DNA of 64,000 nucleotides from Thiobacillus sp. (GCA_049588075.1 JBAVFD010000065.1:1870-65869); one strand, 5' to 3'. Counted from the first letter of the stretch, positions 17,395 through 53,997 are shown. Translations and numbers: made by a program. The notes: a model not told the origin generated them from the sequence alone.

Positions 17395-17404
17395 GGTGTG
17401 CTCC

Positions 17405-19480: not shown

Positions 19481-19490
19481 GGTGATTCCT

Positions 19491-21388: not shown

Positions 21389-21477
21389 CAGCGTCTCCGC
21401 AATCCGTCGAAGACGGACACAAGAACGGCCGTGAGGGCGAAGAAGCCTACGCCCAGGGCGATGTAGAGCAGATCCAT
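21388..21477 (-). CDS. Second small membrane peptide upstream of kdpF (29 aa)
   Basis: [29 protein letters not shown]: one TM segment and a basic tail, RBS GGAAGGA upstream, TGATG overlap with kdpF. Confidence 0.75.
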
Positions 21478-25475: not shown

Positions 25476-25476
25476 G

Positions 25477-27537
25477 TCAGACGTGTTCGATGGGTTTGTC
25501 GAACCTGACAATGCAGGGATTATTCGGTGGTAGTGGGTTCACGAATCGAACAGGATCCAGTAAGACCACGCCAGAGATCAGCTTTTTGCCCTCGCCATCG
25601 GCGCCGATCACCATGTAACGCTGGATGTTGCTTTTCTTCTCTCCGGAGACCAGATTCCAGCCAGCATTGGTAACCTGGCGCTGGATGCCTGTCCCCAGCT
25701 TGCTCCCCGCTCGATCCGATGGCGTGCCATCGCCCTCCTCCCCGAACAGTTCGGCGAACTTGCGAAAGATCACCGGGGAAACCAGCATCATTCCTTCGTC
25801 AACGAAGTGAATCATGGCGTCCGCGCGGTTGTACGGCATGCTGCCTTCCGAGAGGCCCTCCTGAATCCAGCGCATGAACCGCATGGCTGCACCAGAGGGT
25901 TCCTTCTTTTTCGAGCCAGGCTTGGGCCTGGCCGCTGCTTGCCCTGCAGGTGCAACCGGCTTCAATGCTGCTGCAGTAGGGGGCTTGGGTCTTGGTGAAT
26001 GTTTGATCGCGGCGTCGTCTTCATCGAGAAAGCCTGCGTCCCCAGGTTCAGATAGAGCGGCCGCTCTGGGCTGTGCCGGCGGGCGAATGGGAGGGAGAGC
26101 CGTGCTGGCCCGCCTCGGCTGCTCTTCGGTGTTCGGCGAGGAGGTTGGATCGGGCTGCGGTATGACGAGCGACAGCTGGTTGGCCGGATCCTCCAATGGG
26201 TTGGTGGCCGGCTCAACGCCAGAATCACTCATGAAACCAAAATATCGCTCGGATTCCGAATCGAGCGGCTGGATGTATGAGGCATCCTGTTTTCCGGCAA
26301 TGATCTTGCCTCTCATGGTTTCTGGGTAAAGCACCGGGGACTGGAACAGTTTGTCGAGCGAGAAGCACAGCACGGTCAGCTTTTGTTCCCACCCTTCATC
26401 GAGACTGACCATGACCTGCCACACAGCACGGTTCTCACTGGTGGCGATCAAGGCACCGTACTCTTGCCAGGTATCGAAAAGGCGATCGTTCTTATCCTTG
26501 CCAGGTATGCCCTCCCCGCTTTCGCGTTCAGTCAGGAACTGGCGTACCTCGTCAGCCAGCCGCTTGGACACGAACCAGATTTTTCCATCGTAAACCCAGC
26601 CATGGGAGCCTGCCCGATTCAGGCTCAGTCGCCCTTCTTCCAGCATCAGGCGCAAGGCTTGCATCAGGCGTTCGATTAGTGGCACCGACCGGGCGGAAGC
26701 AAAGCGGGTGCGCGGTCCCTGCATCAGGTTGTTCTTGACTGACTCGGAGTCGGCGCGTGTGACGATTTCTCGCAGCACCCCCTTGTCTTGATCATCCCCC
26801 GAAAGGTAGCTCGTCAAATCGCCCATGAGCTGTACGTCATCGGCAAGCCAAGCGAGAACATGGGAAGGGACGAGCCGCTGGAACAGCACGATGGGCAGTT
26901 TCTTGTGCAGGTCGTAATCCCGCGTGATCTCGAAATTCAACGTGTAATGCGTCAACCCCTGATCCAGCATTGAGCCCGCAAGAGGCTGCCACTTGCCACA
27001 GGGTTTTCTCGATCGGAGAACTTTGACGTTGATATCGGCCATAGGCCTTCCAATGTCATGCAGTAGCGCGGCAAGGAACACCGCGTAAGTCCAGCGGTGC
27101 TTGCGAGCCGGGATTTCCTCGGGGGCTGCTCCGACCGGAAGCAGATAGCCCTGCCGGAAGCGTAGCGCGTGTGCTGCCGACTCCATCATATGGGTCATGA
27201 GGCCACCGGGCTGCGCGTGATGGTGCGATTCCGAGGCTGGTAGCAGTTGAGTCCATTCCGCAGCCCGCTCGATGACGGGCATGCAGTCTTGGTGGAACAG
27301 GGTGTAGTCGAAGCCCATGCGGTCACGACATCCGTCGACCAGGGCTTGAAGGTTGAGTTGATCCAGGACGGCTTTGCCAGGGAGAACCTTAATATGGTTG
27401 GCTGCCCTTGAATCGCTACCGGATGGAGTTGAATGGTCGGACGTCGCATGGTCGTTGTGGCGGGCAATACGCCAAACGACCCATACGCCGCCCACTCCCA
27501 AGGCTCCAGCGGCAATGAGCAGCCAATCACCGGACAT
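25477..27537 (-). CDS. traI: MOBH relaxase TraI (HD-type)
   Basis: PASESHHHAQPGGL..H, LLHDIG, W..GRLSLN and C-terminal TraI_2_C-like domain; start at 27537 is coupled (TGATG) to the upstream ORF. Confidence 0.93.
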   Translation of the reverse strand: MSGDWLLIAAGALGVGGVWVVWRIARHNDHATSDHSTPSGSDSRAANHIKVLPGKAVLDQLNLQALVDGCRDRMGFDYTLFHQDCMPVIERAAEWTQLLPASESHHHAQPGGLMTHMMESAAHALRFRQGYLLPVGAAPEEIPARKHRWTYAVFLAALLHDIGRPMADINVKVLRSRKPCGKWQPLAGSMLDQGLTHYTLNFEITRDYDLHKKLPIVLFQRLVPSHVLAWLADDVQLMGDLTSYLSGDDQDKGVLREIVTRADSESVKNNLMQGPRTRFASARSVPLIERLMQALRLMLEEGRLSLNRAGSHGWVYDGKIWFVSKRLADEVRQFLTERESGEGIPGKDKNDRLFDTWQEYGALIATSENRAVWQVMVSLDEGWEQKLTVLCFSLDKLFQSPVLYPETMRGKIIAGKQDASYIQPLDSESERYFGFMSDSGVEPATNPLEDPANQLSLVIPQPDPTSSPNTEEQPRRASTALPPIRPPAQPRAAALSEPGDAGFLDEDDAAIKHSPRPKPPTAAALKPVAPAGQAAARPKPGSKKKEPSGAAMRFMRWIQEGLSEGSMPYNRADAMIHFVDEGMMLVSPVIFRKFAELFGEEGDGTPSDRAGSKLGTGIQRQVTNAGWNLVSGEKKSNIQRYMVIGADGEGKKLISGVVLLDPVRFVNPLPPNNPCIVRFDKPIEHV

Positions 27538-27977
27538 CAGCGGTGTGGGAGCTGTTCGATGAGCCATGAGGCAATTACGGGTGAAGACGGGAAAGTCCCT
27601 TCCCATTTCCAGCAATTGGGCGATAAGTCCCCGCCGATGAAATCACTGAGGGATAGTGAGAGCGGATCCCAGCGCTCCGCGGTTTCGGGATGGCGGACAC
27701 GCCAAGTAAGGAATTCAAGATGAGATAGCGCGTGGGCTACTTCGTCGTCTGTGGTCCCATGCTCCAGTTCGGAGATGCAATGAAGCACCTCATGGGCTGG
27801 GGATTCCTCTTCGTCTTCAAAGTAGCATCGACCGTTCCCGTCATAACGGGCAAGCCATGCAAACACAACGGCCGTCCAGTGGGACAGTTCGATTTTTTCG
27901 AATCGTGCCGCAATGTGTCCGAAGAGCGTGACAGGATGATCCTGATTGTTGGGTTCTTCTATGGAAGCCACGGGCAC
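27537..27977 (-). CDS. Hypothetical protein heading the traI-traD operon (position of GGI yaf)
   Basis: 146-aa ORF whose stop overlaps the traI start; no family recognised. Confidence 0.65.
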   Translation of the reverse strand: MPVASIEEPNNQDHPVTLFGHIAARFEKIELSHWTAVVFAWLARYDGNGRCYFEDEEESPAHEVLHCISELEHGTTDDEVAHALSHLEFLTWRVRHPETAERWDPLSLSLSDFIGGDLSPNCWKWEGTFPSSPVIASWLIEQLPHR

Positions 27978-28040
27978 TCTTTGCGCGAGAAGTGGAAATG
28001 CCCGTGATGCTATGGACTCGGCCGTGGCTTTACAGCAGTT

Positions 28041-28074
28041 AATTCAAACAAAGTATTTTTGATTGATTGCTGAA
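28041..28074 (-). promoter_or_regulatory. Copy A of the 34-bp motif shared by the two tra operons
   Basis: Minus strand TTCAGCAATCAATCAAAAATACTTTGTTTGAATT; 29/34 identical to 49475-49508. Confidence 0.7.
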
Positions 28075-28120
28075 GTGTTTTGTGTTTTGTGATACGCGTT
28101 TTTGTGGCCCGGATTAGCGG

Positions 28121-29317
28121 CTATTGGGGCTGCTCTAACCCAACGATGGGTAGTCCTTCCTGTTCGGCAGTAAAGCCTGCTTTTGCAATTTCCTCACCCA
28201 GCGTTCTCCAGCCTGCGGCACTCGCAAAACGCCGGATTCGTTCTAGTGTGTGCGGTCTGGCTTTAACGCGTCGGTCCTCTGGAACGTCGTCTGGTTGCAT
28301 CATCCACGGTTGAAGGGTATGCCCAGCTGATCTGGCATCCTGAGCCAATATGGAGGCAATCCTGAACCCGCCTTCGTCAATATCGCCCCAGTGATAGATG
28401 GGCACACCTGGCGGCAAGCCGCCAAGCAGTCGAACATACATGGCTCGCCAGGCGGGTGTGGGCATGCCGGCGGTATAGATAAGCAGGATTTCCTCGTCGT
28501 GGCGGCGCCTGGCCTCGCTGTGGAAGGTGGTCTGGTTTTCGATGGTCATCACGAGCTTGGGGGTGCTGGCCAAGCCGACAACAGAAGGCGCAGAAAAAGC
28601 CCCATACGGCTCATCTAGCAGCGCGGTGACGCGGGTACGCGCCACGGTCACCCGGCCTGCCATGCGGACGGGCTGCTCTTCCCGGAACAGGCCGATCTCC
28701 TGCCATACATTGATGGGCTCACGGATCTCGGCGTCGACATCCCCGGTCAACAGCACATCGACCGGCGCAGCCAGTTTCTCGATGCGCTTGCTGTCCTTGA
28801 ACAGTCGTGCGCTGACTTCACGGATTGGCTCGTCAACCCTACTGTTCTCACGGCTGGAGATCATGAAACTGACAATACGGGCGGAATCGACCCAGTCGTG
28901 AGCATCTTCCGGGCCGAAGGAGCGAACCTTCTTCAGGCTGAACCAGCGAGTCAGGACTTCATTCAGAACTGGAAATTCTGGCAGCAAAGGGGCGAACTGC
29001 GAGGCTGCTTTCTCAAGGCGGCTTGCTGCGGTTTCTACACCAAGCAGCTTCGCCAGGGCATCGAGGTCGATCAGTTCGACGCGCTGGATGAACCCATCCT
29101 CGCCGACCCCTTTCTCCCAGGTCAGGGTTACGGCGCCTTCGGCTCTCGCCGCCTTCATCGCTGCCTCGAAAGCATCCTTGTCGGCCAGGGAGCGCGTCGC
29201 CTGATAGTCGGCCAGATACGAGCGGGTCAGCGCCGGCCGGGTCGAGCGGACGCCCGCTGTCGACCGATTGCCGGCCTCAAGCAGCTTTGTGAGGGCGTTA
29301 CGGGCCTTCGTGTCCAT
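28121..29317 (-). CDS. jetD: Wadjet nuclease JetD (DUF3322 + DUF2220 Toprim)
   Basis: TIENQTTF and YHWGDIDEGGFRI Toprim motifs, C-terminal AEQE; follows jetC. Confidence 0.88.
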   Translation of the reverse strand: MDTKARNALTKLLEAGNRSTAGVRSTRPALTRSYLADYQATRSLADKDAFEAAMKAARAEGAVTLTWEKGVGEDGFIQRVELIDLDALAKLLGVETAASRLEKAASQFAPLLPEFPVLNEVLTRWFSLKKVRSFGPEDAHDWVDSARIVSFMISSRENSRVDEPIREVSARLFKDSKRIEKLAAPVDVLLTGDVDAEIREPINVWQEIGLFREEQPVRMAGRVTVARTRVTALLDEPYGAFSAPSVVGLASTPKLVMTIENQTTFHSEARRRHDEEILLIYTAGMPTPAWRAMYVRLLGGLPPGVPIYHWGDIDEGGFRIASILAQDARSAGHTLQPWMMQPDDVPEDRRVKARPHTLERIRRFASAAGWRTLGEEIAKAGFTAEQEGLPIVGLEQPQ

Positions 29318-29324
29318 GTGACGG

Positions 29325-32300
29325 CTACACCAACTGTGGGGTAGCCGTGCCCACCCCATGCATGCGATTGACTTCCTGCTCAATGAGTTCGGGGTGGGTG
29401 TCCAGGTCGTCCGACATGAACATCTCCCGAACCTCGTCGGTGACATCATGGCCATCAATGAAGATCACGTTGCGCAGGGAGTCTTTTGAAATGTCGTAGT
29501 AGCGATGCAGGAAAGCATTGAGCACGCCCAGATTCTCGCCTGGACTGGCCATGAACACCTGCAAACCCAGATCCTGCAGGTAGCGCATCGTGGCCGTGAT
29601 GTTGGTCGGGTCCATTTTGTTGAAGGCTTCATCGAGCAGGATCAGCCTGATGCCGTCGCGGTTGTCGCGGTCCAGGCGATAGGCCGATGCCAGTGCGGCA
29701 CCGGCAATTACGTACAAAGGCGCGCGGTGCTCGCCGCCGGATCCCGGCCCGATGCGCTTGCTCAGATGGCCAACCACCTTGGAGTCTCCCGTCAGCGGGT
29801 CATCCCGCTTAATTTCTATGTCAAATTCGTAAAATTCGCGGTAGTCATCCAGCGGGCTTTTGATGCTGCCGGCGCCTGGCGCGATCTTGTCGTCAAGCAG
29901 TTCCTTGAACTGTGGCGGGATCTCCCCGGCCCCGCCCAGCAAGTCTTCCTGTGGGCCGAAAGATGCGATGTTCTTCACGAATTCGAGAAGCGGCTTGAAG
30001 TGTGGTCGAACAATGCGCTTGAACTGATAACGCTCACCGTTGGTGAATGCCGGGCATTCTTTCAGCACCCGGTTGAGTTGCTCCATGGTGACATCAAGCG
30101 CCTCGATGTTCTGGCTCAGGGCCAAGGCAACGTCATTCCTGAATGTGTCCTGGGAAACCCTGTAGGCATCGTTCATCTGCTCTTTGTATTCGAGCAATTC
30201 CGTGTCCCGCAGCCGTTTCAGGATGTCGCCCATCCAGGACTGCGCTTTACGCCAGTCTTCACGCACCTCTTCGCTGGCCTGTTCACGGTATTTCGTCAGG
30301 AATTCGCCCATCAGGCCGCTTCCCTTGTTGGCTTCACTTTCTGATCGCCTGGTGAATTCCCTTTGCTTTCCGTCGCAGTAGATTGCCATGGCCACGTAGT
30401 CTTCACCCTGCTTTTCGAGCAGGTCATCCCACTTGCGCGATGAATATTCGGCGTCGTATTCCGGATCGTTGCGGGCAGCGTCAGCGGCTTTGCTGGCTAC
30501 TTGAACCTTGCCAGCTGCTGCTTCAACATTCCTTTTGCATTGGTCAAATGCAGTTTTTGCTGAACCGAGAATACCGTTAGCGGAAGTGACGGCTTGACCA
30601 AGTTCTTCCGCCTTTTTCGCCCAATCCTGCTCATCCCGGCCAAGCTGCATATATTCCTCATTGGCCGCGCCTTCGACTTTTCTTTCAAGGCTGGCTGCCG
30701 TGTCTTTAGCCTTTTCAGCATCCGTCCAGTAGCCCTTGATGTAGGTTTGAGCCTGTTCTTCAGGGGGGAAGATTCGAAGTACGCCGGATGTCGCTTCGAC
30801 AGCGCCTACTTGTAGCGCAATGGCTTTCGCTTCTTTCTCGCAATCCGCGACATGCTTTCTGGCTGCATCGAGGTGCCGCCCGCCACCATCCCGGCCAATT
30901 CGCAGGTCGCCATCGGAAACCAGTTTCAGGCGCTCGATGGTGCCTTTGCCGACGAGCATGCCGTCCTGCGTGAGGGTGCGCTTGCCGCGCTCCATGGCCT
31001 GAGCCGTGGTTGTGGCACACACCATGTCCCCAAAAAGACTACGCAGATAGGCAACCGCAGCCGGATCGGTGCCTTCGATCAATTCTGCTACGGAGCCGCT
31101 TTCATAACGACGACCGGGCTCCTGGCGGCTTTCCATCACGATCTTGGCCCCGTACACGGCACGTTTTTCGGGCAGGCCTCGATACACCTCAAATGCCTGT
31201 CGCTCCTGATTCTGAGTCACAAGCAATGCCTGCAGGTTGCCACCCAGGTAGGCCTCGATTGCAGGCTGCCATTCCTTTTTCGTGATCCTGACGACATCGC
31301 ACACCACCACGGGGCTGATCCCCTCGTCCCGCAATTCCCTCTGCAAGGTTTCGACGTTTGGGTTGAGCGGGGCTTTGCCCTGGCTGACTCGTTCAAGTGC
31401 GTTTTTTGCGTTCTGGAGGCGTTGCTTAGCTCCATTCTGCTGTTCGTTAAGTGCGTTGCCGATGGCTTTCAGATTCTGCTGCGCTTGCTCCGAAGTCTGA
31501 ATCGCGGATCGCAGGTGGGTATCAACATCGCTCCATTCAACTTCCTTGAACCGTTCGATGAGCACGGCCAGCTTTTGAGATTCGTCGGCCAGGCTGCGGC
31601 TGATAGCATCTTCCAGGGTTCCGGTCTCTGCGGCCTTTTTCAGATGGTCCCGGAACAGCGAAAGCTGACGAATGATGTCCTTTTTCTTCTGTTCTGCGTT
31701 GTCATGATTTGTACGGATCTGGCTCTGGAGCCCGGCGTAATCCGCATGCGAAGCATGCTGTTCGCGCAACTGGCGAAAGTGGCTCGTTTTATCTGCGGCT
31801 TCAATGTGGTCGTCACTTAATGAATTAAAAGTCTTCTCGGCTTGGGCGTGCGCTTCCTCGGCCTCATTTTTGAGACCTTCCGCTTCGTCATGCGCCTGAT
31901 TCGCCTGCTGGAGCGCCACATCCAGACCCAGGGCCTTCCATGTGGCTGCTTTGCTGGCCGCGATGGTGGCATTCTCGAACGCGGCTTCAACCGCTGCGCC
32001 ATCGGTAATCTTTTGCTCCACCTGAGCGACCAGCTCGGCCAGGCGCCGGAAGGAGTCGGTGACTTCCTTGAATCGCTTGATATTGGTTGGCCGGGATTCG
32101 AGCACGTCATTCCTGACAATCTCGTCCACCGTCTTGTCGAAACGCATTCTCAGGGCAAACTTGAATGCACGGACAAAGGCGTCGTATGAAGGTGCCCCAC
32201 CCGAGCCGCGCAGTTCAAGCAGGCAAGCGCGGATATAGCGTTCGGCCTCCTCAAACACGCATTCCTCGCCGGACACCCTTGATCGTTGAAGCAGCTGCTG

Positions 32301-32771
32301 TTTGAAGGTACTCCATTCCCTCGGGCTTTCCTTGCCGTCGACGGTCTCAAGGTGGTCACCCAGCGTCAGTTCCACGTCAGGCAGAAGATAGCGGCCCAGC
32401 ACTTTGTGCTGTTCGCTGTTTTCGTCGGCATAGATGCACACGCCCATGGAAACGGGCTTTCTGGTCTCTGAATCACGCCAGATCAGCGTGATGTAGGTGT
32501 TCGAGCGTGGCCGTACCCGGTCTTCGGCCGTATCGCCGTACTGGCCAAGGCAATAACTCCGGATTGAGCGGGTCGTCTTGTTCTCGTCAGCCTGAGCGTT
32601 CAGTGCCATCAGGCGGCTGTTGGCGCCAAACATGGCGATCTGGACGGCATCGAGAAACGAGCTTTTTCCGCTGCCGTTTGGCCCGAAAATCCCCGTGATC
32701 TCGGCAATGCGGACATGCTCTCTTTCATACAGAAAGAACTGCACCAGGTTGATGCTTTCCAGATATTTCAT
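29325..32771 (-). CDS. jetC: Wadjet SMC-like ATPase JetC
   Basis: 1148 aa; N-terminal LVQFFLYE, Walker A GPNGSGKS, long coiled coil, GPGSGGE signature and Walker B LILLDEAF. Confidence 0.9.
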   Translation of the reverse strand: MKYLESINLVQFFLYEREHVRIAEITGIFGPNGSGKSSFLDAVQIAMFGANSRLMALNAQADENKTTRSIRSYCLGQYGDTAEDRVRPRSNTYITLIWRDSETRKPVSMGVCIYADENSEQHKVLGRYLLPDVELTLGDHLETVDGKESPREWSTFKQQLLQRSRVSGEECVFEEAERYIRACLLELRGSGGAPSYDAFVRAFKFALRMRFDKTVDEIVRNDVLESRPTNIKRFKEVTDSFRRLAELVAQVEQKITDGAAVEAAFENATIAASKAATWKALGLDVALQQANQAHDEAEGLKNEAEEAHAQAEKTFNSLSDDHIEAADKTSHFRQLREQHASHADYAGLQSQIRTNHDNAEQKKKDIIRQLSLFRDHLKKAAETGTLEDAISRSLADESQKLAVLIERFKEVEWSDVDTHLRSAIQTSEQAQQNLKAIGNALNEQQNGAKQRLQNAKNALERVSQGKAPLNPNVETLQRELRDEGISPVVVCDVVRITKKEWQPAIEAYLGGNLQALLVTQNQERQAFEVYRGLPEKRAVYGAKIVMESRQEPGRRYESGSVAELIEGTDPAAVAYLRSLFGDMVCATTTAQAMERGKRTLTQDGMLVGKGTIERLKLVSDGDLRIGRDGGGRHLDAARKHVADCEKEAKAIALQVGAVEATSGVLRIFPPEEQAQTYIKGYWTDAEKAKDTAASLERKVEGAANEEYMQLGRDEQDWAKKAEELGQAVTSANGILGSAKTAFDQCKRNVEAAAGKVQVASKAADAARNDPEYDAEYSSRKWDDLLEKQGEDYVAMAIYCDGKQREFTRRSESEANKGSGLMGEFLTKYREQASEEVREDWRKAQSWMGDILKRLRDTELLEYKEQMNDAYRVSQDTFRNDVALALSQNIEALDVTMEQLNRVLKECPAFTNGERYQFKRIVRPHFKPLLEFVKNIASFGPQEDLLGGAGEIPPQFKELLDDKIAPGAGSIKSPLDDYREFYEFDIEIKRDDPLTGDSKVVGHLSKRIGPGSGGEHRAPLYVIAGAALASAYRLDRDNRDGIRLILLDEAFNKMDPTNITATMRYLQDLGLQVFMASPGENLGVLNAFLHRYYDISKDSLRNVIFIDGHDVTDEVREMFMSDDLDTHPELIEQEVNRMHGVGTATPQLV

Positions 32772-33448
32772 GCTTCAGCTTCCTCTTGCTGATCCGGTCC
32801 TTGACCTTCACCTTCTTCAGTCTGCTCTTGTGCGGGCTTGAACGATTGTGTGAACTGGTCCAGCCGGGAGATCGCCGTTTCACCCAGCAGATCCACAATG
32901 GCGGGGCGTATGGCCAGGACGTAGGGTTGATCGGTGCTGATGCCCGTATCGGTGAACTCATGTTCATCCATCTTGCGAACGATTCCCCAGCGTTTCAGTG
33001 TTTTGACCAGGCTCTCCAACTCGCCTTTGGCGGGCAGTTCGCGCTTTCCGGACGTGGAGAGACGATACTTTTCCTCCAGCTCGACCAGGTCGCAGATCAC
33101 TTCGCCGTCATCGTTCAACTGACCGGTTCGGGCCTGTTCGTCGTAGATCTTCCGGAGCACCAGCGCGAGGAGCGTTTGCGCGGTATTGGCCGTGCCTGCC
33201 TTGCCGTTGTCAGGAGTCGCGCAGGCATAGCGCAGTTGCCGGTTCACGATCAGGCCGCTGCCGACCATTGAGAGGACGTGTTTGAAATCGCGTTCAAACC
33301 GCTCGACCATGGCGTATGCCACGCGACTATGCTTGTCAGCGTAATAAAGCACCTGTTCAGAGAGCAGGCGGCTGGCCGTCGACTGGAATTCCTCTGCCTC
33401 ATATTGCCTGTCGGTCTTGTTTGCGACGTTTTCCCAATACTGGCTCAT
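32768..33448 (-). CDS. jetB: Wadjet JetB (DUF4194-like)
   Basis: TLLALVLRKIYDE motif, about 226 aa, ATGA overlaps with both jetA and jetC. Confidence 0.82.
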   Translation of the reverse strand: MSQYWENVANKTDRQYEAEEFQSTASRLLSEQVLYYADKHSRVAYAMVERFERDFKHVLSMVGSGLIVNRQLRYACATPDNGKAGTANTAQTLLALVLRKIYDEQARTGQLNDDGEVICDLVELEEKYRLSTSGKRELPAKGELESLVKTLKRWGIVRKMDEHEFTDTGISTDQPYVLAIRPAIVDLLGETAISRLDQFTQSFKPAQEQTEEGEGQGPDQQEEAEA

Positions 33449-34920
33449 GCCGATTTCCCTTTGGTTGCGGCCGGTTTCTTCGCGCTCTCGATCTGAAACG
33501 GAACACCGGTAATCCACTTGTTTTCGATTTCCTTGTCGCCTGTGCGACGGACCTTGAAGCCGCGCATCATGGTTGACGCCTGCTGCCGCAAATAGGCCGA
33601 TCCGCTATCCATGGCCGCGCCGAGGACCAACAAGGTCTGATAAGCTCGGACGTCGGCTAGGCCGCCGAGCTGCAGATCCTCGCTGGCGATGGTTTGTTTG
33701 CCGGAAAGCTGTCGGGACACGAACTCAGCCAGCTTTGGGGCGTTAACCAGCCGCAGATTGCGGGCAAGGGCCCGCAACTTCGCCCGGGCAATGTCTTCGT
33801 CAGTGGGCGTGGTTTCCCGAAGTTGAGGCGCTTTCTCTCGCACTTCTTGTCGGCGCGGCTCGGCAAGGTTGGCCGGGCTGATCATGTCACCGGGAGCGAA
33901 TGGACCTTCATGAGCATCCTCGCCAGAGTCCATGACTCGTACGATCGCAGCATCGACTACCTTGTCGATAGGCCGGAGCGATCGCAGGCGGTAATCCAGG
34001 TAGGCAAGGGCCCGGCGGTTTGCGCGCCGAATCTCGTCATCCAGTCGCTCCAGGTAATCGTCGATCCGCTGGATATCGCGCAATTTCTGCACATCGCGCT
34101 CGAACATGCGTTCCGCTTTTGTCCGGTCGCCCTGGAAGCGTTTGGTTTCGTACCAGGTGATCAGGCGCTCGCGGCTCTGCTCGGAGGTGTGCAGATCCTC
34201 GACCCAGTGCAGGATCTGCGGACGCCGCGACAGCGGGTGCTCGCGGGTCCGGAGCTCCTTGTAGTCGCCGATGAACACCTGCTCGATGAAATCGCTGAAG
34301 AAGCGGCGGACGTACTGGGTGGTGGTTTCCTCTGCTCCGAGCGCGCTCATCAAATCGCGGATGTTCGTACCGGTATTACGGATGTGCTCAAGAAGGTTTC
34401 TTGCCTGATCAGCCGCCTCGACAAGCGAGTCGCCGCCGGCGCCTTCCATCACCAGCTTCAGGTTGGCTTCGATTGATCGAACCTTGCCCGCCACATAGAT
34501 CGGCCCGGTTTCCGCGAAGTTGATAAGCTGGCCCAGAAACTGGTTGACCGCCGGGGTCATGGAGACCCGCTTGTCGACGCCATGACGGTCCAGGCGAAGC
34601 CAGCCGCAATCATGCAGCCGGTTGAAGATGGTGATGGCCCGGATGCCAAGCGGCGTTTCGGGCGTCGCGCCGTCCTCGTCCGTCCAGGCGTCGTGAATGA
34701 CCAGTTCGGATTCGATATCCTGGGTGATGTCACGGGTCGTGAACCCAAAACTGGGGGGCAGCGGAGCATCTGGCCCGAAGCGCCTGTCGTAGAGCGCGCA
34801 CAGGATGCCCCAGTAGGTCTGCTTATTGGGCGAGGCGAGCGGCGCAAACAGCCGCTCCGGTAGCCGCGTGAACAGAAGGGAGGCGGCAGCGCCGCCAGCA
34901 CCTAGCGGTTGAAAAGCCAC
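33445..34920 (-). CDS. jetA: Wadjet JetA (kleisin-like)
   Basis: LF..LPERLFAPLASPN N-terminus, L..CGWL, about 490 aa; first gene of the jetABCD run. Confidence 0.8.
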   Translation of the reverse strand: MAFQPLGAGGAAASLLFTRLPERLFAPLASPNKQTYWGILCALYDRRFGPDAPLPPSFGFTTRDITQDIESELVIHDAWTDEDGATPETPLGIRAITIFNRLHDCGWLRLDRHGVDKRVSMTPAVNQFLGQLINFAETGPIYVAGKVRSIEANLKLVMEGAGGDSLVEAADQARNLLEHIRNTGTNIRDLMSALGAEETTTQYVRRFFSDFIEQVFIGDYKELRTREHPLSRRPQILHWVEDLHTSEQSRERLITWYETKRFQGDRTKAERMFERDVQKLRDIQRIDDYLERLDDEIRRANRRALAYLDYRLRSLRPIDKVVDAAIVRVMDSGEDAHEGPFAPGDMISPANLAEPRRQEVREKAPQLRETTPTDEDIARAKLRALARNLRLVNAPKLAEFVSRQLSGKQTIASEDLQLGGLADVRAYQTLLVLGAAMDSGSAYLRQQASTMMRGFKVRRTGDKEIENKWITGVPFQIESAKKPAATKGKSA

Positions 34921-35762
34921 TTGGACACCTCCCGTGCGTTTTCAACGGCGATCAGATACTCGGGCGCGTGCTGGATCTTTGTGTCCATCGCGGCGTGTAT
35001 GTCCAGAATGAAATAGGGGACCAGAGCCGCGCGGCAGGTTTCCACGCGGCTCGCGGTCCCATTGAAGTATTCGGCCTGGATCACTCTGGCCTGCGCAGGA
35101 GAGAGTTCAGGGTGGGCGACCAGGCGAACCTTGACCTTGGTGTTCCAGTCGGGGTCATCGAATCGGGTGCGATCCGCGAGACGCGCCAAAGGCTTCACTT
35201 CGAGGATCCGCCCCAGTGCGTAATCCCGGAATTCCTGATGGGCCTCGCTGTAGGCGCGCACATGCCACCTGCGGCCGGCGAGAACCAGGCTGTGCGGATA
35301 GATCGTGCGGCGATGCGGAGCCGGTTCGCTCATCGACATGTATTCGATTTCGACGGCTTTTGCCTGTCTGATCGAATTTCCGAGGCTGGCGAATGTCTTG
35401 GGTGCCGGGGCGGTGATGCTTGGCGTCGCCGACCAGGCCACCGAACTGCCATCTTCCATGGCCGACGCATAGGGAAGCCCGACCATGGACAGGTAACGGG
35501 AAAGCGATTCGGAAATGTCTGCCTGAGAGGCCTTGGTGTACCGCTTGTAGAAATCTGACGTAGCGAAGTAGCTCCTGGACTTGCTGTCCCATTGCATCCA
35601 GGTTGGGTTCAGGTCGCGGATTTCCTTGATCCATTGGCTGGCCCGTGGCAAACCAATCCCAAACAGCTCGCATACCCGCGAACGGTAAATGCGCCCTTCC
35701 CAAACCAGCAAAAGCTCCAGAAGGGTAAGGCGTTGTTGCGGGCTGTCGTTCCGTTGGTCCAT
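34902..35762 (-). CDS. WYL-domain transcriptional regulator (CapW/BrxR-like)
   Basis: wHTH 'RLTLLELLLVWEGRIYRSRVCELFGI..P.AS', WYL core 'YMSMSEP..HRRTIYPHSL....RRWHVRAY...FRDYALGRI' and C-terminal WCX-like region. Confidence 0.9.
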   Translation of the reverse strand: MDQRNDSPQQRLTLLELLLVWEGRIYRSRVCELFGIGLPRASQWIKEIRDLNPTWMQWDSKSRSYFATSDFYKRYTKASQADISESLSRYLSMVGLPYASAMEDGSSVAWSATPSITAPAPKTFASLGNSIRQAKAVEIEYMSMSEPAPHRRTIYPHSLVLAGRRWHVRAYSEAHQEFRDYALGRILEVKPLARLADRTRFDDPDWNTKVKVRLVAHPELSPAQARVIQAEYFNGTASRVETCRAALVPYFILDIHAAMDTKIQHAPEYLIAVENAREVSKWLFNR

Positions 35763-35773
35763 GTGCTTTTCCG

Positions 35774-35813
35774 TATGTTATAGAAAAATATAACATATAA
35801 TTTCTTATAACAT
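35774..35813. promoter_or_regulatory. Candidate WYL-regulator operator
   Basis: Perfect 9-bp inverted repeat TATGTTATA-GAAAAA-TATAACATA (35774-35797) plus a third half-site TATAACAT (35806-35813), 11 bp from the start codon. Confidence 0.75.
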
Positions 35814-36159
35814 TGACCTTGCAGCAAAAAACCCCTGCCTGCCAACACTGTAACCAGGGGGTTGCCCCACCCTGCGTTCCGTGGCTTCACTTCGTGCGAC
35901 CGCTTTGACCATAGAAGCGACGGAGGGAGGCTCTCTCAGACAGGCGGGTCGTCGGCCGAAGCAGCCTGTCCCCACTTTCCACAACCGGTCATTCAGGAAC
36001 GTCTGCTTCTGAAGATGCCGAATCGTCATTTTCGACTCATTGCAGACGGGTTGATGGAGAACGCCAGCCTTAAACGGACGATCACCGCTTGCACCATCGC
36101 ACCGCGCCCACAGCAAAACCAAAGGGCTGCGCGTGTGCGTTATTCGGGCACCGCCTTTA

Positions 36160-37560
36160 TCATCGCCAACCACCGCCGAGCACTTTGTACAGCGTCACGC
36201 GGTTGGCGGCGTCGGCCAGCCGTACGATGATCAGCTCCTGCTCGGCAAGGTAGCGCGAGCGCTGGGCGTCGAGCAAGCCTAGATAGCTGTCCGCCCCGCC
36301 CTTATAACGCGCATCCGACAGGTGGAAAGCTGCCTGCGTGGCCTCAACCTGCTGGCGCCGGGCGTCAAGCCGCTCGGCGAGCGAGGCACGGTCAGCCAAC
36401 GCATCGGCCACCTCACGGAAGGCGCTCTGGATAGCCTTCTCGTACTGCGCCACGTTGATGTCGCGCTGCACCTCGGCTACGTCCAGGCTCGCCTGCAGGC
36501 GACCCGCCTCGAAAACAGGAATGCGGATCTGAGGGATGAAGCTCCAGGCTCCAGATCCGCCGCTGAAAAGGCCATCCATGGTGCTGCTGGCGGTGCCGGC
36601 GGCGGCGGTCAGCGTAATGCTCGGGAAGAAAGCTGCGCGTGCGGCGCCGATGCTGGCATTGGCAGCACGCAGTGCGCGTTCGGCCTGCAGAATATCGGGG
36701 CGCTGGGTGAGCACGTCGGAAGGCACACCAGTTGGCAATTCGGCCACAGCGCTAACCGTGTCGGTGAGCGTGGCTGGCAGCAGGTCGGCCGGCACCGGGG
36801 CGCCGACAACGAGTGCGAGCGCATTTTCGTCCTGAGCGGCGAAGCTGTTGTAACGCGCAACGTCGGCACGAGCGCTTTGCAGCAACTGCTGCGACTGGTT
36901 CAGGTCGAGCGCCGAGACCACACCTGCTTCGAAGCTGCGTCGGATCAGATCGTGGGATTTCTGCCGTGTCTCGTAGGTGCTGCGAGCCAGCGCCAGGCGT
37001 TCGTTGTCAAACGCGAGCGTCAGCCAGGTGCCGGCAACTTCGGCCACCAGGCTTATCTGGGCGCTGCGGCGCGCCTCCTCGGTGCCGAGATATTGCTCCA
37101 GCGCTGCTGCGTTAAGGCTGCGGATGCGGCCAAAGAAATCCAGCTCGTAAGAGGAGAAACCGATCGTGGCGTTGTACTGGCGACTGATCCCAGCCTCACC
37201 GCTGCTGGTCAGTTCGCCAGGCAGGCGCTGTGCGGTTTGTTCGCCGATCGCGCCGACAGATGGAAACAAGTCAGCACGCTGGATGCGGTACTGCGCGCGC
37301 GCCTGCTCGATGTTGAGTGCAGCTACGCGCAGGTCGCGGTTGTTGGCGAGCGCCAGCGCGATCACTTGGCGCAGTTGCGCATTGACAAAATAGTCACGCC
37401 AGGCGATGGCATCGGCTGGTGTCGCCGAAGCTACCTGGGGCGCATTCGGAAAACTCGCCGGCACCGGCGCCGCGGGCCGCTGGTATTCCGGGATCATCGT
37501 GCAGGCGCTCGCCAGGGTGGCGGCAATAGCGACGGTCAGGGTGCGTAACGGACTCATCAC
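36160..37560 (-). CDS. RND outer-membrane lipoprotein channel (OprM/NodT family)
   Basis: Lipobox [36 protein letters not shown] and LYKVLGGGW. Confidence 0.93.
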
Positions 37561-40500
37561 TTGAACTCCAGTTGGGCTGCTGCAGAGGCTGTTTCTGCCG
37601 CCTGTGGTTTGCTCTTGAACAGACGCATGATCACCACGTAGAACAGCGGGATGAAGAAAAGGCCGAGCAAGGTGCCAGCGAGGGTACCGCCGAGCACGCC
37701 AGTGCCGATCGCGTTCTGACTGCCCGAGCCGGCGCCGGTGGCGATCGCCAGCGGCAGCACACCGAGACCGAAGGCGAGCGAGGTCATCAAGATCGGACGC
37801 AGCCGCATACGCACTGCATTAAGCGTGGCACTGATTAGGTCCTTACCCTCCTGCTCCATCTGCGCCTTGGCGAATTCCACGATCAGAATCGCGTTCTTCG
37901 ACGAAAGGCCGATGGTAGCCAGCAGGCCAACCTGGAAATACACGTCATTCGACAGGCCGCGCCCGGTTGCCGCAACCACCGCACCGAGCACGCCGAGCGG
38001 CACCACCAGCATGACGGCGAACGGCACCGACCAGCTTTCGTACAACGCTGCCAGGCAGAGGAACACCACCAGCAGCGACAGCGCGTACAGCCCCGGCGCC
38101 TGGGTGCCGCTGCGGCGCTCCTCGTAGGAGGTGCCGCTCCATTCGTAGCCAATGCCTGGCGGCAGCTTGGCGATGATCTCCTCGACCGCCGCCATCGCGT
38201 CGCCCGACGACAGCCCGGGCGCGGCTTGGCCTTGCAGCTCGACCGACGACTGGCCGTTGAAGCGCTCCAGCCGCGGCGAGCCGTAGGCCCAGTGCGCGGT
38301 GGCGAACGCCGACAAGGGCACCATCTCGCCCTGCTGGTTGCGCACGTACCACTTGGACAGATCTTCCGGCTTCATGCGCGCATCGGCGTCGGCCTGCACA
38401 TACACTTTCTTGATGCGGCCGCGATCGATGAAGTCGTTGACATAGGTGCCGCCCCAAGCGGTGGCGAGCGTGTCGTTGATATCTGCCACCGAGACGCCGA
38501 GCGCGCCCGCCTTGGCATGATCGATGTCGAGCTGGTACTCGGCGACGTCGTCCTGGCCGTTGGGACGCACGCCGACCAGGCGCTTGTCCTGCGACGCGAG
38601 ACCGAGAAACTGGTTGCGCGCGCTGATCAGCGCATCGTGGCCGAGGCCGGCGCGATCCTGCAGTTGCACATTGAAACCGCTCGATGTGCCGAGTTCGAGC
38701 ACCGCCGGCGGCACGAAGGCAAACACCATCGCTTCGCGGATCTGCGAGAACGCGGCCATCGCGCGTCCGGCAACTGATTTCACGTCCTGTCCCGGCTCAT
38801 GGCGCTCATCCCAGTCCTTCATGCCGACGAAGCCGAGCCCCATGTTCTGGCCGCTACCGCCGAAGCTGAAACCGGCCGCGGTAAAGATCGATTTCACGCT
38901 GTCTTTCTCGTTTTCGAGGAAGTGGTGCTCGACTTTTTTCAGCACCTCGACGGTACGCTCCTGGGTCGCCCCGGCCGGCAGCATGATCTGGGTGAACATC
39001 ACGCCCTGGTCTTCTTCCGGGAGAAAAGAAGTTGGCAGACGAACGAACAGTAGCGCCAGTACGACGATGATAGCGGCGTAGATCACCAGGAAGCGCAGGC
39101 TGCGTCGCAGGATATTGCCCACTGCCGATTCATAGCGCTGCGTATTGCGCTCGAACATGCGGTTAAACCAACTGAAGAAGCCGGAAAGCCAGCCGCCTTC
39201 ACCGTGGCCGTGGCCCTTTTGCACAGGCTTCAGCATGGTCGCACACAGCGCCGGCGTGAAAATGATCGCAACCAGTACCGACAGCGCCATCGCCGCGACA
39301 ATGGTGATCGAGAACTGGCGATAGATGACGCCGGTGGAACCGCCGAAGAAGGCCATCGGCACGAACACCGCCGACAGCACCAGGCCGATGCCGACCAGTG
39401 CGCCGGTGATCTGGCGCATCGATTTCTTGGTCGCTTCCTTCGGTGACAGTCCTTCCTCACTCATCACGCGTTCAACGTTTTCAACCACCACGATGGCATC
39501 GTCCACCAAGAGGCCGATGGCCAGCACAAGTCCGAACATGGTCAACGTATTGATCGAGAAGCCGAACGCAGCCATCACGCCGAAGGTGCCGAGCAGCACC
39601 ACCGGCACGGCGATGGTGGGAATGAGGGTGGCACGGAAATTCTGCAGAAACAGATACATCACTAGGAACACCAGGATGATCGCCTCGATCAGGGTCTCCA
39701 CCACGCCCATGATGGATATCTTGACGAAAGGCGTGGTGTCGTAAGGCACCACGACCTCGATCCCAGCGGGGAAATACGCCTTCATCTGCTCGACCTTGGC
39801 GCGTACCGCATCCGCCGTATCGAGCGCATTGGCCCCGGCGGCGAGTTTGATGCCGATACCTGCGGCGGGCTGGCCGTTGAAGCGCCCGACGATGCCATAG
39901 TTCTCGGCGCCGATTTCGACGCGGGCGACATCCTTTAGGCGTACTTCTCCACCCTGCGCCGAGCTGCGCAACAGGATCTGCTCGAACTCCCCGACGGTCT
40001 GCAACCGGCTCTGCGCGGTGATCGATGCAGTGAAACCCTGCCCCGCCACCGCCGGCGTGCCGCCGAGTTGGCCGGCCGACACCTGGTTATTTTGCGCCCG
40101 GATTGCGGCCTGCACGTCGGCTGGGGTGAGCCTGAAACTGTTCAGTTTCGCCGGGTCGATCCAGATGCGCATGGCGTACTGGGCGCCGAACACCTGCACC
40201 TCGCCGACGCCGGTCACGCGCGACAGCGGTTCCTGCACTGTCGAGTTGAGGAAGTCGGACAGGTCGACCCGGCTCAGGCTGCCATCCTTGGACACGAAGC
40301 CAAGTACCATCAGGAAGTTGCGCGTCGATTTCACCACCTGCACGCCCTGCTGCTGCACCGCCAGCGGCAGCAGTGGCAGCGCGAGCTGCAGCTTGTTCTG
40401 CGTCTGCACCTGCGCAATGTCGGGGTCAGTGCCGGCATCGAAGGTCAGCGTCACCGTGACTTTGCCGTAGGAGTCGGACGACGAATTCATGTAGAGCAAG

Positions 40501-40721
40501 TTGTCGAGTCCGGTCAGCTTCTGTTCGATGACCTGCGTGACGGAGTCCTCCACCGTCTTCGCCGAGGCGCCGGGATAGGTGGCGTTGATGGCGATGGTGG
40601 GCGGCGCGATGGCCGGATACTGCGACACCGGCAGCGCCAGGATGGACAGTCCACCCGCGAGCATGATGACGATGGCGATGACCCACGCGAAGATGGGACG
40701 GTCGATGAAAAAGCGGGCCAT
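37557..40721 (-). CDS. RND efflux transporter (AcrB/MexB, HAE1 family)
   Basis: [40 protein letters not shown] and RLRPILMTS. Confidence 0.96.
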
Positions 40722-40732
40722 GGTCTGTTACC

Positions 40733-53992: not shown

Positions 53993-53997
53993 AGAAC

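What the first reader, a model, noticed from the sequence alone, without database searches (positions are those of the whole stretch)
28121..35813. Wadjet (jetABCD) under a CapW/BrxR-type WYL regulator with a visible operator
The WYL gene heads the operon and overlaps jetA; jetA-B-C are ATGA-coupled. A perfect 9-bp palindrome (TATGTTATA-N6-TATAACATA) plus a third half-site lies just upstream. Established: CapW/BrxR-type WYL proteins repress CBASS, BREX and other defence loci and respond to nucleic-acid ligands, and Wadjet cleaves circular plasmid DNA. Inference: an inducible anti-plasmid system triggered by ssDNA or DNA damage.
Basis: partly seen in the sequence, partly recalled or inferred. 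Interest (0 to 1): 0.7.

Follow-up and report, generated by a model that had tools for sequence, protein, structure and literature searches.

The report
BrxR/CapW-regulated Wadjet on an ICE
A complete type I Wadjet anti-plasmid operon sits behind a BrxR/CapW-type WYL repressor gene and its conserved palindromic operator, in the defence slot just upstream of the relaxase gene of a Thiobacillus conjugative element; it is a well-supported but ordinary example of a known arrangement.

Summary
TATGTTATA-N6-TATAACATA (35774-35797) is exact and unique in the window, and it did not occur in any of 100 shuffles. A third ATGTTATA lies 17 nt upstream.

All five genes are on the minus strand:
- WYL gene, 35762-34902
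- jetA, 34920-33445, overlapping the WYL gene by 19 nt
- jetB and jetC, each ATGA-coupled to the gene before
- jetD, starting 7 nt after the jetC stop

PADLOC calls type I Wadjet, with JetA1 to JetD1 at E-values from 1e-73 to 0. The ATPase and Toprim motifs are intact.

The WYL protein aligns over its full length to solved CapW (E 3e-37) and BrxR (E 1e-24). It keeps the RWHVR motif and all four ssDNA-contact residues.

Across 61 related loci, the operator block stays constant while the 5' flanks and the cargo change. The half-sites change together with the recognition helix.

The arrangement is not new. Papers already report BrxR/CapW next to Wadjet, and a WYL regulator heading defence cargo directly upstream of traI is the rule in SXT ICE hotspot 5.

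The most interesting item lies outside the window. In sister elements the same regulator and operator head an unannotated four-gene system with a JetD-like nuclease. It replaces jetABCD at the same slot.

Verdict: new member of a known kind; interest about 0.35.

The parts
35774..35797 (.). Operator: perfect inverted repeat TATGTTATA-N6-TATAACATA. It ends 11 nt upstream of the WYL start codon.
   Evidence: It is exact and unique in the window, with 0 of 100 shuffles matching. It is identical in all loci whose WYL protein is at least 90% identical, whatever lies 5' of it or downstream. In L018 it changes in a way that preserves the symmetry.
35805..35813 (-). Third half-site ATGTTATAA. It is a direct repeat of the left arm, 17 nt upstream of it.
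   Evidence: It marks the 5' edge of the conserved block in alignment A4. In L018 it carries the same T-to-A change as both arms.
35787..35795 (-). Candidate extended -10 element, TGtTATATT, lying inside the left arm. A second TGtTATAAG lies at 35812-35804 inside the third half-site. This is inference only.
   Evidence: Read directly from the sequence. The tool's canonical sigma-70 scan found no -35/-10 pair in 27900-36400, so the promoter is not established.
35826..35868 (-). GC-rich hairpins followed by a run of six T. This looks like a terminator that could insulate the operon from the upstream efflux genes. It is inference only.
   Evidence: Read from the sequence. The terminator scan did not call it. 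Loci with other 5' flanks lack it.
34902..35762 (-). BrxR/CapW-family regulator gene, 286 aa, with wHTH-linker-WYL-WCX architecture. It is the first gene of the operon.
   Evidence: Pfam WYL 3e-15. Full-length matches to CapW and BrxR structures. Precomputed WHD_BrxR-WYL-BrxR_CTD on the identical protein. YMS at 141-143, RWHVR at 165-169 and LGRI at 183-186 are present.
33445..34920 (-). jetA (kleisin-like subunit), 491 aa. The GTG start overlaps the WYL gene by 19 nt, and GGGAGG lies at 34933-34928.
   Evidence: PADLOC JetA1 2.9e-177 and Pfam JetA 5e-51. Junction verified.
32768..33448 (-). jetB (KITE/MukE-like subunit), 226 aa, ATGA-coupled to jetA.
   Evidence: PADLOC JetB1 4.5e-73 and Pfam DUF4194 9e-18. 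Junction verified.
29325..32771 (-). jetC (SMC/MukB-like ATPase), 1148 aa, ATGA-coupled to jetB.
   Evidence: PADLOC JetC1 E=0 at 1188 bits. Walker A GPNGSGKS at 30, signature SGGE at 1011, Walker B LILLDE at 1043. An SMC hinge hit.
28121..29317 (-). jetD (Toprim nuclease), 398 aa. It starts 7 nt after the jetC stop.
   Evidence: PADLOC JetD1 2.1e-142 and Pfam JetD_C 2e-12. Toprim ENQTTF at 260 and DIDEGG at 312.
25477..27615 (-). Context: traI (MobH-family relaxase), the next gene downstream in the same orientation. It is followed by a traD-like coupling protein gene (25511-23415) and a DUF4400 gene (23755-22700).
   Evidence: NCBIfam MobH 4e-99 and ICE_TraI_Pfluor 9e-55. Pfam TraI_2. TraG-D_C/TrwB and DUF4400.

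Best explanation
This is a five-gene operon, WYL-jetA-jetB-jetC-jetD, carried as cargo in the variable slot directly upstream of traI on a MOBH/MPF-F type integrative conjugative element of Thiobacillus.

The first gene encodes a dimeric wHTH-WYL-WCX repressor of the BrxR/CapW family. Its two winged-helix domains should bind the 24-bp palindrome. That palindrome lies on the only AT-rich stretch between an upstream GC-rich hairpin and the start codon, so the operon's promoter must lie there too. Binding would therefore block RNA polymerase and hold both the regulator and Wadjet at a low, self-limited level (negative autoregulation). The third half-site probably adds a weaker or cooperative contact.

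By analogy with CapW, ssDNA bound in the WYL pocket (S143, R165, R169, R185) would spread the wHTH domains apart, release the operator and raise jetABCD expression. JetABC then loop-extrudes and JetD cuts small circular DNA.

Shown here: gene identities, operon coupling, family membership of the regulator, conservation of its ligand pocket, and conservation and co-variation of the operator.

Inferred: repression, the promoter position, the ssDNA trigger, and plasmid cleavage.
For: - Type I Wadjet with intact catalytic motifs.
- Translational coupling through the whole operon.
- The regulator aligns along its whole length to CapW and BrxR structures and has the BrxR Pfam architecture.
- The RWHVR motif and the four ssDNA-contact residues described for CapW (PMC11662680) are present and invariant in 30 homologs.
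- The palindrome is statistically non-random.
- Its geometry matches experimentally proven BrxR operators: 11 bp with a 5-bp spacer, and 10 bp with a 5-bp spacer (PMC9122601).
- Footprint: the 45-nt block ATGTTATAAGAAnTTATATGTTATATTTTTCTATAACATA is kept across three unrelated 5' flanks and three kinds of downstream cargo.
- In L018, whose regulator is 73% identical, all three half-sites carry the same T-to-A change.
- More distant clades pair different recognition helices with different repeated motifs.
- In 52 of 55 informative related loci the regulator gene is followed directly by a Wadjet-type system or its remnant.
- No Rfam family matches the region and the leader RNA is not unusually stable (z = -1.29).
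Against: - No binding, expression or restriction data exist for this locus.
- The consensus promoter scan found no sigma-70 promoter, so the overlap of operator and promoter rests on my reading of extended -10-like TGnTATAnn elements.
- Metatranscriptome contigs cover the WYL gene, but they cannot separate RNA from DNA or show a transcription start.
- The authors of the CapW work argue that Wadjet should be constitutively expressed to work best (PMC11662680). This sits uneasily with tight repression.
- The same authors note that a DNA-damage trigger has no obvious logic for an anti-plasmid system.
Confidence: 0.72

Rival explanations
1. The regulator is a homeostat only. It autoregulates the operon to a constant low level that limits Wadjet toxicity or cost, and no physiological signal induces it. 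The conserved WYL pocket would serve folding or allostery, or an irrelevant ligand.
For: The regulator is the first gene of its own operon, which gives classic negative autoregulation. Published opinion holds that Wadjet needs to be present before a plasmid arrives (PMC11662680). Picton et al. suggest BrxR limits the toxicity of defence islands (PMC9122601).
Against: All four ssDNA-contact residues and the RWHVR motif are invariant across 30 homologs down to 47% identity. This argues that ligand binding is under selection.
Confidence: 0.2
2. The WYL protein is an activator, like DriD or PafBC. It would bind the repeats and switch the operon on when it binds ssDNA.
For: WYL-domain activators exist. 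PafBC and PafC give weak WYL-only matches (E 1e-3 to 4e-2).
Against: Full-length similarity is to the repressors CapW and BrxR, 20 or more orders of magnitude better than to PafBC. The palindrome ends 11 nt before the start codon. It would therefore sit over or downstream of any -10 element, which is a repressor position.
Confidence: 0.04
3. The inverted repeat works as a nucleic-acid hairpin, for example a leader RNA structure, a terminator remnant or a recombination site for cassette exchange, rather than as a protein operator.
For: Inverted repeats fold, and the MFE structure includes this 9-bp stem. The cassette-exchange boundaries lie near the regulator gene.
Against: The stem is all A-U or G-U rich and the leader is not more stable than shuffles (z = -1.29). 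The third half-site is a direct copy, not an inverted one, yet it co-varies with the arms in L018. A hairpin does not explain that. The recombination breakpoints lie at about 34760-34870 and 28107-28460, about 0.9 kb or more from the palindrome. No Rfam family matches.
Confidence: 0.03
4. The regulator mainly controls element functions, such as traI-traD transfer genes downstream or excision, and jetABCD is a passenger in that transcription unit.
For: traI follows jetD in the same orientation after about 500 nt. That spacer is 97-100% conserved between elements. A WYL gene is a fixed feature of the slot upstream of traI in SXT ICEs.
Against: The same regulator clade heads Wadjet systems in loci without any relaxase nearby. 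MobH was seen in only 9 of the related loci. In Pseudomonas stutzeri the regulator and its cargo lie in a chromosomal defence island. No further operator copy occurs near traI.
Confidence: 0.05

Closest known systems
BrxR (E. fergusonii pEFER; Acinetobacter sp. NEB 394), the WYL repressor of BREX and defence islands
   Same: The wHTH-linker-WYL-WCX architecture is shared, with full-length alignment at E about 1e-24. In both, the regulator gene comes first, in the same orientation as the defence genes. Both have an inverted-repeat operator of about 24-27 bp between the promoter region and the regulator gene.
   Different: The cargo here is Wadjet, not BREX or restriction-modification. The spacer is 6 bp rather than 5 bp and the arms are 9-10 bp. 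The operator sequence is unrelated. An additional direct-repeat half-site is present. The regulator gene overlaps the first cargo gene.
CapW (CBASS-associated; S. maltophilia 7TB6, 7TB5, R. leguminosarum 9C5G, E. coli upec-117)
   Same: CapW proteins give the best sequence matches (3e-37, 2e-34, 6e-26). The RWHVR motif is shared. S143, R165, R169 and R185 correspond to Rl CapW S144, R164, R168 and R184, which contact ssDNA.
   Different: E. coli upec-117 CapW, the one whose locus is described, sits at a bidirectional promoter that it shares with its CBASS operon. Here the regulator is co-directional with the cargo and translationally linked to it. The cargo cleaves DNA circles rather than causing abortive infection.
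Hotspot 5 of SXT/R391 ICEs
   Same: In both, a variable defence cassette lies directly upstream of the MOBH relaxase gene traI and is bounded at its far end by a WYL-domain regulator gene. Cassettes are exchanged between elements (bioRxiv 10.1101/2020.12.16.423150).
   Different: The host here is a betaproteobacterium (Thiobacillus). The traI-traD block is divergent from the MPF-F genes in this window. Membership of the SXT/R391 family proper (integrase, attachment site, SetR/SetCD) was not tested. The cargo described for SXT is BREX, restriction-modification, an Abi gene and a DISARM-like set; Wadjet was not mentioned.
Type I Wadjet / JET (E. coli GF4-3, P. aeruginosa PA14) and MksBEFG
   Same: Gene order jetA-B-C-D is the same. 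The kleisin, KITE, SMC ATPase and Toprim nuclease families are all recognised by PADLOC type I models.
   Different: The sequences are too far from the solved complexes for phmmer to detect (no PDB hits for JetA or JetD at 1e-3, or for JetC at 1e-10). A dedicated repressor gene is fused into the operon here. I did not check whether the studied systems have one.

Membership tests
BrxR/CapW family (wHTH-WYL-WCX transcriptional repressors) | N-terminal winged helix, two-helix linker, WYL domain and C-terminal WCX domain in one polypeptide of about 290 aa | tested here: met
   The protein aligns over residues 9-283 of 286 to CapW 7tb5, 7tb6 and 9c5g and to BrxR 7t8k and 7qfz. Pfam WYL 3e-15. The 100%-identical database protein carries PF26109 WHD_BrxR, PF13280 WYL and PF26107 BrxR_CTD.
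BrxR/CapW family (wHTH-WYL-WCX transcriptional repressors) | RWHVR motif and the conserved Ser and Arg residues that line the ssDNA pocket | tested here: met
   RWHVR at 165-169, S143 in YMS and R185 in LGRI. They correspond to Rl CapW S144, R164, R168 and R184 (aligned). All are invariant in alignment A1.
BrxR/CapW family (wHTH-WYL-WCX transcriptional repressors) | Palindromic operator of about 20-27 bp at its own promoter | tested here: met
   A 9+6+9 bp perfect palindrome lies 11 nt before the start codon. It is conserved and co-varies with the regulator. The geometry is comparable to proven BrxR sites. Physical binding was not tested.
BrxR/CapW family (wHTH-WYL-WCX transcriptional repressors) | Represses the adjacent defence operon; ssDNA binding releases the DNA | not testable with these tools
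   This needs EMSA or fluorescence polarisation with and without ssDNA, and reporter assays. Metatranscriptome contigs were uninformative.
Wadjet type I (JetABCD) | Four co-directional genes encoding JetA, JetB, JetC and JetD of the type I families | tested here: met
   PADLOC best models are JetA1 2.9e-177, JetB1 4.5e-73, JetC1 E=0 and JetD1 2.1e-142. Type II and III models score far lower. Pfam JetA, DUF4194, SbcC_Walker_B/SMC_hinge and JetD_C.
Wadjet type I (JetABCD) | Intact SMC-type ATPase motifs in JetC and Toprim acidic residues in JetD | tested here: met
   JetC has GPNGSGKS, SGGE and LILLDE. JetD has ENQTTF and DIDEGG.
Wadjet type I (JetABCD) | Restricts small circular DNA by loop extrusion and cleavage | not testable with these tools
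   This is established for other type I systems (review PMC10586767). Nothing here tests it.
SXT/R391-type ICE hotspot 5 (considered as layout, not claimed as family membership) | Defence cargo plus a WYL regulator directly upstream of a MOBH traI on an element with MPF-F transfer genes | tested here: met
   MobH relaxase 4e-99. TraD-like and DUF4400. TraE, TrbI, DsbC, TraC, TraU and TraN. The layout is described.
SXT/R391-type ICE hotspot 5 (considered as layout, not claimed as family membership) | SXT-family integrase, prfC attachment site and SetR/SetCD regulation | not tested
   These were not searched for in the window. In this window the traI block is on the minus strand and the MPF genes are on the plus strand. 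I recall SXT as co-linear, but I did not check this against a source.

The most novel reading that the evidence does not exclude
The regulator's ssDNA pocket may make this ICE-borne Wadjet an invader-sensing weapon between mobile elements. The single-stranded DNA that enters during conjugation of a rival plasmid (or DNA damage) would lift repression. JetABCD would then cut the rival once it has become a small circle, while the much larger excised ICE is spared by size.

In addition, this BrxR subclade appears to be a dedicated controller of JetD-armed SMC systems. These include a not yet described type that swaps with jetABCD at the same slot in sister elements.
Probability: 0.2. Interest if true: 0.65.

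Novelty: new member of a known kind. Interest (0 to 1): 0.35.

Why it matters
How Wadjet expression is controlled has not been studied experimentally, as far as the papers I could search show. The authors of the CapW work themselves call the CapW/BrxR-Wadjet pairing puzzling.

This locus and its roughly 50 relatives give a clean natural test set. It offers a compact regulator, an obvious operator, sequence-level predictions for uninducible mutants (S143E, R185A), and natural operator and recognition-helix variants.

It also extends the SXT 'hotspot 5' logic (fixed WYL regulator, exchangeable defence cargo, then traI) to Betaproteobacteria and to an anti-plasmid cargo. That bears on competition between conjugative elements.

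None of this overturns current understanding.

Tried and rejected
- **Promoter and terminator scan of 27900-36400.** No canonical sigma-70 promoter was found and the upstream hairpin was not called. The promoter assignment stays inferential.
- **phmmer of JetA, JetC and JetD against PDB sequences.** There were no hits at the thresholds used. The solved Wadjet complexes are too distant for a direct structural mapping.
- **Megablast of the locus against PLSDB plasmids.** No match.
- **Metatranscriptome contigs of four runs laid on 33400-36400.** The WYL gene is covered, with peak depth at its 5' part in one run. Contigs carry no strand or end information, may include DNA, and the jet genes are too diverged to be counted. 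This is not usable as expression evidence.
- **RNA fold of the leader.** z = -1.29, so there is no case for a structured RNA. Rfam found nothing and there are no tRNA genes in the window.
- **hhalign of the alternative cassette's A, B and C proteins against JetA, JetB and JetC profiles.** No convincing signal, and D was weak.
- **Profile of its large protein against PDB sequences.** Only coiled-coil noise.
- **Activator model, hairpin model and control of traI.** All were considered and ranked low, for the reasons given under rival explanations.

Full report
**1. The observation**

On the minus strand, the sequence just upstream of the WYL gene reads ...GGTCAATGTTATAAGAAATTATATGTTATATTTTTCTATAACATACGGAAAAGCACATG.
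- The inverted repeat TATGTTATA-N6-TATAACATA occupies 35774-35797. It is exact, and it is the only match in the 64-kb window even with three mismatches allowed. It never arose in 100 dinucleotide-preserving shuffles.
- The core octamer ATGTTATA occurs three times in the window, all within these 40 nt. The chance expectation is 0.14.
- With one mismatch allowed, only one further copy of the 9-mer appears, at 21677. That is within chance.
- The repeat ends 11 nt before the ATG of the WYL gene.

The window is 55-70% G+C, so this AT-rich 45-nt island stands out.

**2. The genes**

All five genes lie on the minus strand.
- The junctions were read base by base. The WYL gene stops at TAG 34904-34902.
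- jetA starts at GTG 34920, which gives a 19-nt overlap. GGGAGG lies 7 nt upstream of the GTG.
- jetA/jetB and jetB/jetC share ATGA.
- jetD starts at ATG 29317, 7 nt after the jetC stop.

PADLOC assigns all four to type I Wadjet: JetA1 2.9e-177, JetB1 4.5e-73, JetC1 E=0 and JetD1 2.1e-142. Pfam agrees with JetA, DUF4194, SbcC_Walker_B plus SMC_hinge, and JetD_C.

JetC keeps Walker A (GPNGSGKS), the signature motif (SGGE) and Walker B (LILLDE). JetD keeps the Toprim Glu (ENQTTF) and DxD (DIDEGG). The system therefore looks functional.

It is distant from the solved complexes. phmmer found no PDB match for JetA or JetD at E 1e-3, or for JetC at 1e-10.

**3. The regulator**

The 286-aa protein has a Pfam WYL domain.

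More tellingly, it aligns over almost its whole length to CapW (7tb5 3.3e-37, 7tb6 1.7e-34, 9c5g 6.4e-26) and to BrxR (7t8k and 7qfz, about 1e-24). The WYL-domain activators PafBC and PafC match only the WYL core, at 1e-3 to 4e-2.

The identical protein in the large protein collection is pre-annotated PF26109-PF13280-PF26107. Another output names these WHD_BrxR, WYL and BrxR_CTD.

Blankenchip et al. 2024 (PMC11662680) showed that CapW binds ssDNA through S144, R164, R168 and R184 of the R. leguminosarum protein. R164 and R168 flank the RWHVR motif. Binding splays the wHTH domains off the palindromic operator. The corresponding residues here are S143, R165, R169 and R185. All are present and invariant in an alignment of 30 homologs down to 47% identity.

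**4. The operator, tested by comparison**

A scan of one genome per species returned 61 loci encoding relatives of the regulator. The closest are Thiobacillus MAGs. L001 encodes an identical regulator, so the window is from Thiobacillus or a near relative.

Close relatives:
- In every locus whose regulator is at least 90% identical, the block ATGTTATAAGAAnTTATATGTTATATTTTTCTATAACATA is retained.
- This holds where the sequence 5' of it is unrelated (L012, L013, L014, L019, L020).
- It also holds where the downstream cargo is something other than jetABCD (L009, L010).

L018 (regulator 73% identical):
- Both arms and the upstream third site carry the same T-to-A change, ATGTTATA to ATGATA.
- A hairpin model could explain the arms but not the direct repeat. 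A common binding protein explains all three.

More distant clades show different recognition-helix sequences together with different repeated AT-rich motifs upstream:
- GLPRASQWIKEIRD with ATGTTATA
- SSVRASEWIREFRE with TTACGA/TCGTAA and CGTAAnATATGG
- GDIRASQLIQEFRD with TATGGTAT
- GSNWASVWIREFRE with GTATGATA

Proven BrxR operators are 11-bp arms with a 5-bp spacer (E. fergusonii) and 10-bp arms with a 5-bp spacer (Acinetobacter; co-crystal). They lie between the promoter and brxR. A single arm is enough for some repression (PMC9122601). The geometry here, 9-10 bp arms with a 6-bp spacer, is equivalent.

**5. Promoter**

The consensus scan found no sigma-70 promoter anywhere in 27900-36400.

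Conservation begins at the third half-site, and unrelated 5' flanks are tolerated. The promoter is therefore most likely inside the conserved block.

Each ATGTTATA(A/T) reads as TGnTATAAG or TGnTATATT, which resembles an extended -10. If the one at 35795-35787 is used, transcription would start inside the right arm. A bound dimer would then occlude both the -10 and the start site. This is my inference from the sequence, not a tool result.

The leader is not a stable RNA (z = -1.29) and no Rfam family matches.

**6. Context**

Downstream, in the same orientation, lie three transfer genes:
- a MobH-family relaxase (NCBIfam 3.9e-99)
- a TraD/TraG-type coupling protein
- a DUF4400 protein

From 49 kb onward, on the other strand, lie MPF-F transfer genes: SLT, TraE, TrbI, DsbC, TraC, TraU and TraN.

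Between them sit an RND efflux pump, a TetR gene, an ABC-2 transporter and LpxR. The locus is therefore cargo of a MOBH/MPF-F conjugative element. Relatives lie in contigs of up to 3.3 Mb, so the element is integrated, that is, an ICE.

LeGault et al. (bioRxiv 10.1101/2020.12.16.423150) reported that hotspot 5 of all SXT ICEs, the slot directly upstream of traI, carries defence systems plus a WYL-domain regulator. The layout here is the same.

**7. Cassette exchange**

Against L001, nucleotide identity varies sharply along the locus:
- 98-100% from 35961 to about 34760 (operator, regulator gene and the first 150 nt of jetA)
- 57-86% through jetABCD, lowest in the JetC coiled-coil arms
- 97-100% again from about 28460 through traI

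In L009 the similarity stops at 34869 and resumes at 28107, and a different system fills the gap.

The regulator and operator are thus a fixed anchor, and the cargo behind them is replaced by recombination. LeGault et al. inferred the same for SXT.

**8. How specific is the pairing?**

Six of the 61 loci end too soon to be informative. Of the other 55:

| Cargo directly behind the regulator gene | Loci |
|---|---|
| Type I jet genes | 42 |
| Unannotated four-gene system ending in a JetD-like gene | 7 |
| Type II Wadjet (L042) | 1 |
| MukF-like, MukB-like and JetD-like genes (L024) | 1 |
| Jet remnant (L048) | 1 |
| None of these (L010, and the 30-33% identical L056 and L057) | 3 |

The sample is a subclade by construction, because the scan used peptide patterns from close homologs. 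Within it, the regulator is essentially a Wadjet regulator.

**9. What is already known**

- Picton et al. 2022 list Wadjet among the systems found downstream of BrxR homologs.
- Blankenchip et al. [quoted passage not shown]
- Text searches found no paper that tests a WYL-regulated Wadjet experimentally. The library does not cover most subscription journals.

The finding is therefore a new, clearly delineated member of a known kind.

**10. Mechanism and its uncertainty**

I put about 0.8 on the statement that the regulator binds the palindrome and represses its own operon. I put about 0.5 on ssDNA or DNA damage being the physiological inducer. The combined best explanation is scored 0.72.

A speculative extension is that conjugative entry delivers ssDNA, which could be the relevant signal for an anti-plasmid system. 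Wadjet spares circles larger than about 100 kb (PMC10586767), which could protect the excised ICE. The size of this ICE is not known from the window.

**11. Side lead: the alternative cassette**

The cassette is found in L009, L015, L017 (T. denitrificans DSM 12475), L021, L047, L041 and L022, and also in Pseudomonas stutzeri next to DISARM-like genes (L062). It encodes proteins of about 455-508, 260, 1650-1667 and 370-394 aa.

- Only the last protein matches anything: JetD1 9e-18 and JetD_C 5e-7. The other three have no Pfam, PADLOC or NCBIfam hit and no precomputed Pfam domain in more than 100 homologs.
- The large protein has an invariant P-loop (NGGGKTS), an LSTGQ signature and a Walker B in which Gly invariably replaces the catalytic Glu (FFDG).
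- A model of its first 1130 residues has low confidence (pLDDT 67). Even so, it retrieves MukB (2.9e-10), Wadjet-II JetC (1.3e-6), Smc5/6, condensin, cohesin and Rad50.
- A good model of the 260-aa protein (pLDDT 83, pTM 0.79) retrieves, weakly but consistently, E. coli Wadjet chain 8as8_C, MukE and a Wadjet-II subunit as its top five hits (E 0.02-0.26).

This looks like a very divergent Wadjet-like SMC/KITE/nuclease system that current annotation resources miss. It is not in the window and is only partly followed up.

Noticed in passing
L009:10818-19303 (also L015, L017, L021, L047, L041, L022, L062, L064): In sister elements the same regulator (84-96% identical) and the same operator head a different four-gene operon of about 508, 260, 1667 and 394 aa. 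Only the last protein hits JetD. The other three have no Pfam, PADLOC or NCBIfam match. Structure models point to a KITE-like small subunit (top hits JetB and MukE, weak E-values) and an SMC-like large subunit (MukB 3e-10, Wadjet-II JetC 1e-6, from a low-confidence model). This may be an undescribed Wadjet-like type. In P. stutzeri it lies next to DISARM-like genes.
   Followed up: partly
Alignment A2, positions 45-51, 1521-1524 and 1568-1569 of P0121: The large subunit of that alternative system has an invariant Walker B Asp-Gly (FFDG) in place of the Asp-Glu of SMC/ABC ATPases. Its P-loop (NGGGKTS) and LSTGQ signature are normal. This raises the question of whether it hydrolyses ATP.
   Followed up: no
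window 34760-28460 compared with L001 and L016: jetABCD is 57-86% identical at the nucleotide level to the closest relatives, while the regulator gene, the operator, the jetD 3' end and traI are 97-100% identical. The breakpoints are sharp. The JetC coiled-coil region (about 32060-30260) is the most diverged. This indicates cassette replacement or very fast evolution of the Jet genes.
   Followed up: partly
L042:4766-13075; L024:11242-17198: More distant members of the same regulator subclade (48-57% identical) head a type II Wadjet (JetA2-D2, Trinickia mobilis) and a set of MukF-like, MukB-like and JetD-like genes. The subclade therefore tracks Wadjet-type systems in general, not only type I.
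   Followed up: partly
window 22700-27615 and 49421-63932: Conjugative-element backbone. MobH relaxase, a TraD-like coupling protein and DUF4400 lie on the minus strand. SLT, TraE, TrbI, DsbC, TraC, TraU and TraN (MPF-F type) lie on the plus strand. The element's ends, integrase and size were not determined.
   Followed up: partly
window 36160-48802: Other cargo lies between the Wadjet operon and the transfer genes: an RND efflux pump (OMF, AcrB-like and MFP components), a TetR regulator, an HlyD-like protein with an ABC-2 transporter, and an LpxR lipid A deacylase homolog. The sequence upstream of 35961 is not shared with L001.
   Followed up: no
window 14098-21422: A kdp potassium-uptake cluster (KdpA, a KdpB-like P-type ATPase and the KdpD sensor kinase) lies directly beyond the DUF4400 gene. 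A drop in G+C at about 21-23 kb may mark a boundary of the element or a further cargo region.
   Followed up: no
window 35762-35813: The three half-sites and the start codon fall on a 17-nt register: ATGTTATAA at 0, ATGTTATAT at 17, AACATA at 34 and ATG at 51. Distant relatives show direct repeats with a period of about 17-18 nt, the last of which overlaps the start codon (for example L031 and L034). The meaning is unknown.
   Followed up: no
L010:10001-11500; L048:10850-12010; L015:4030-4092: Signs of decay in relatives. L010 has an orphan regulator and operator with no cargo behind them. L048 has a jetA fragment abutting a jetD fragment. L015 has a degenerate right arm of the palindrome (CATAGCCTA), although it still heads the alternative cassette.
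   Followed up: no
window 34800-36000, runs X6, X7, X11, X12: Contigs from libraries labelled metatranscriptomic (sludge, wastewater, wetland) cover the regulator gene at 95-100% identity. Depth is highest over its 5' part in one run. This cannot distinguish RNA from DNA carry-over.
   Followed up: partly
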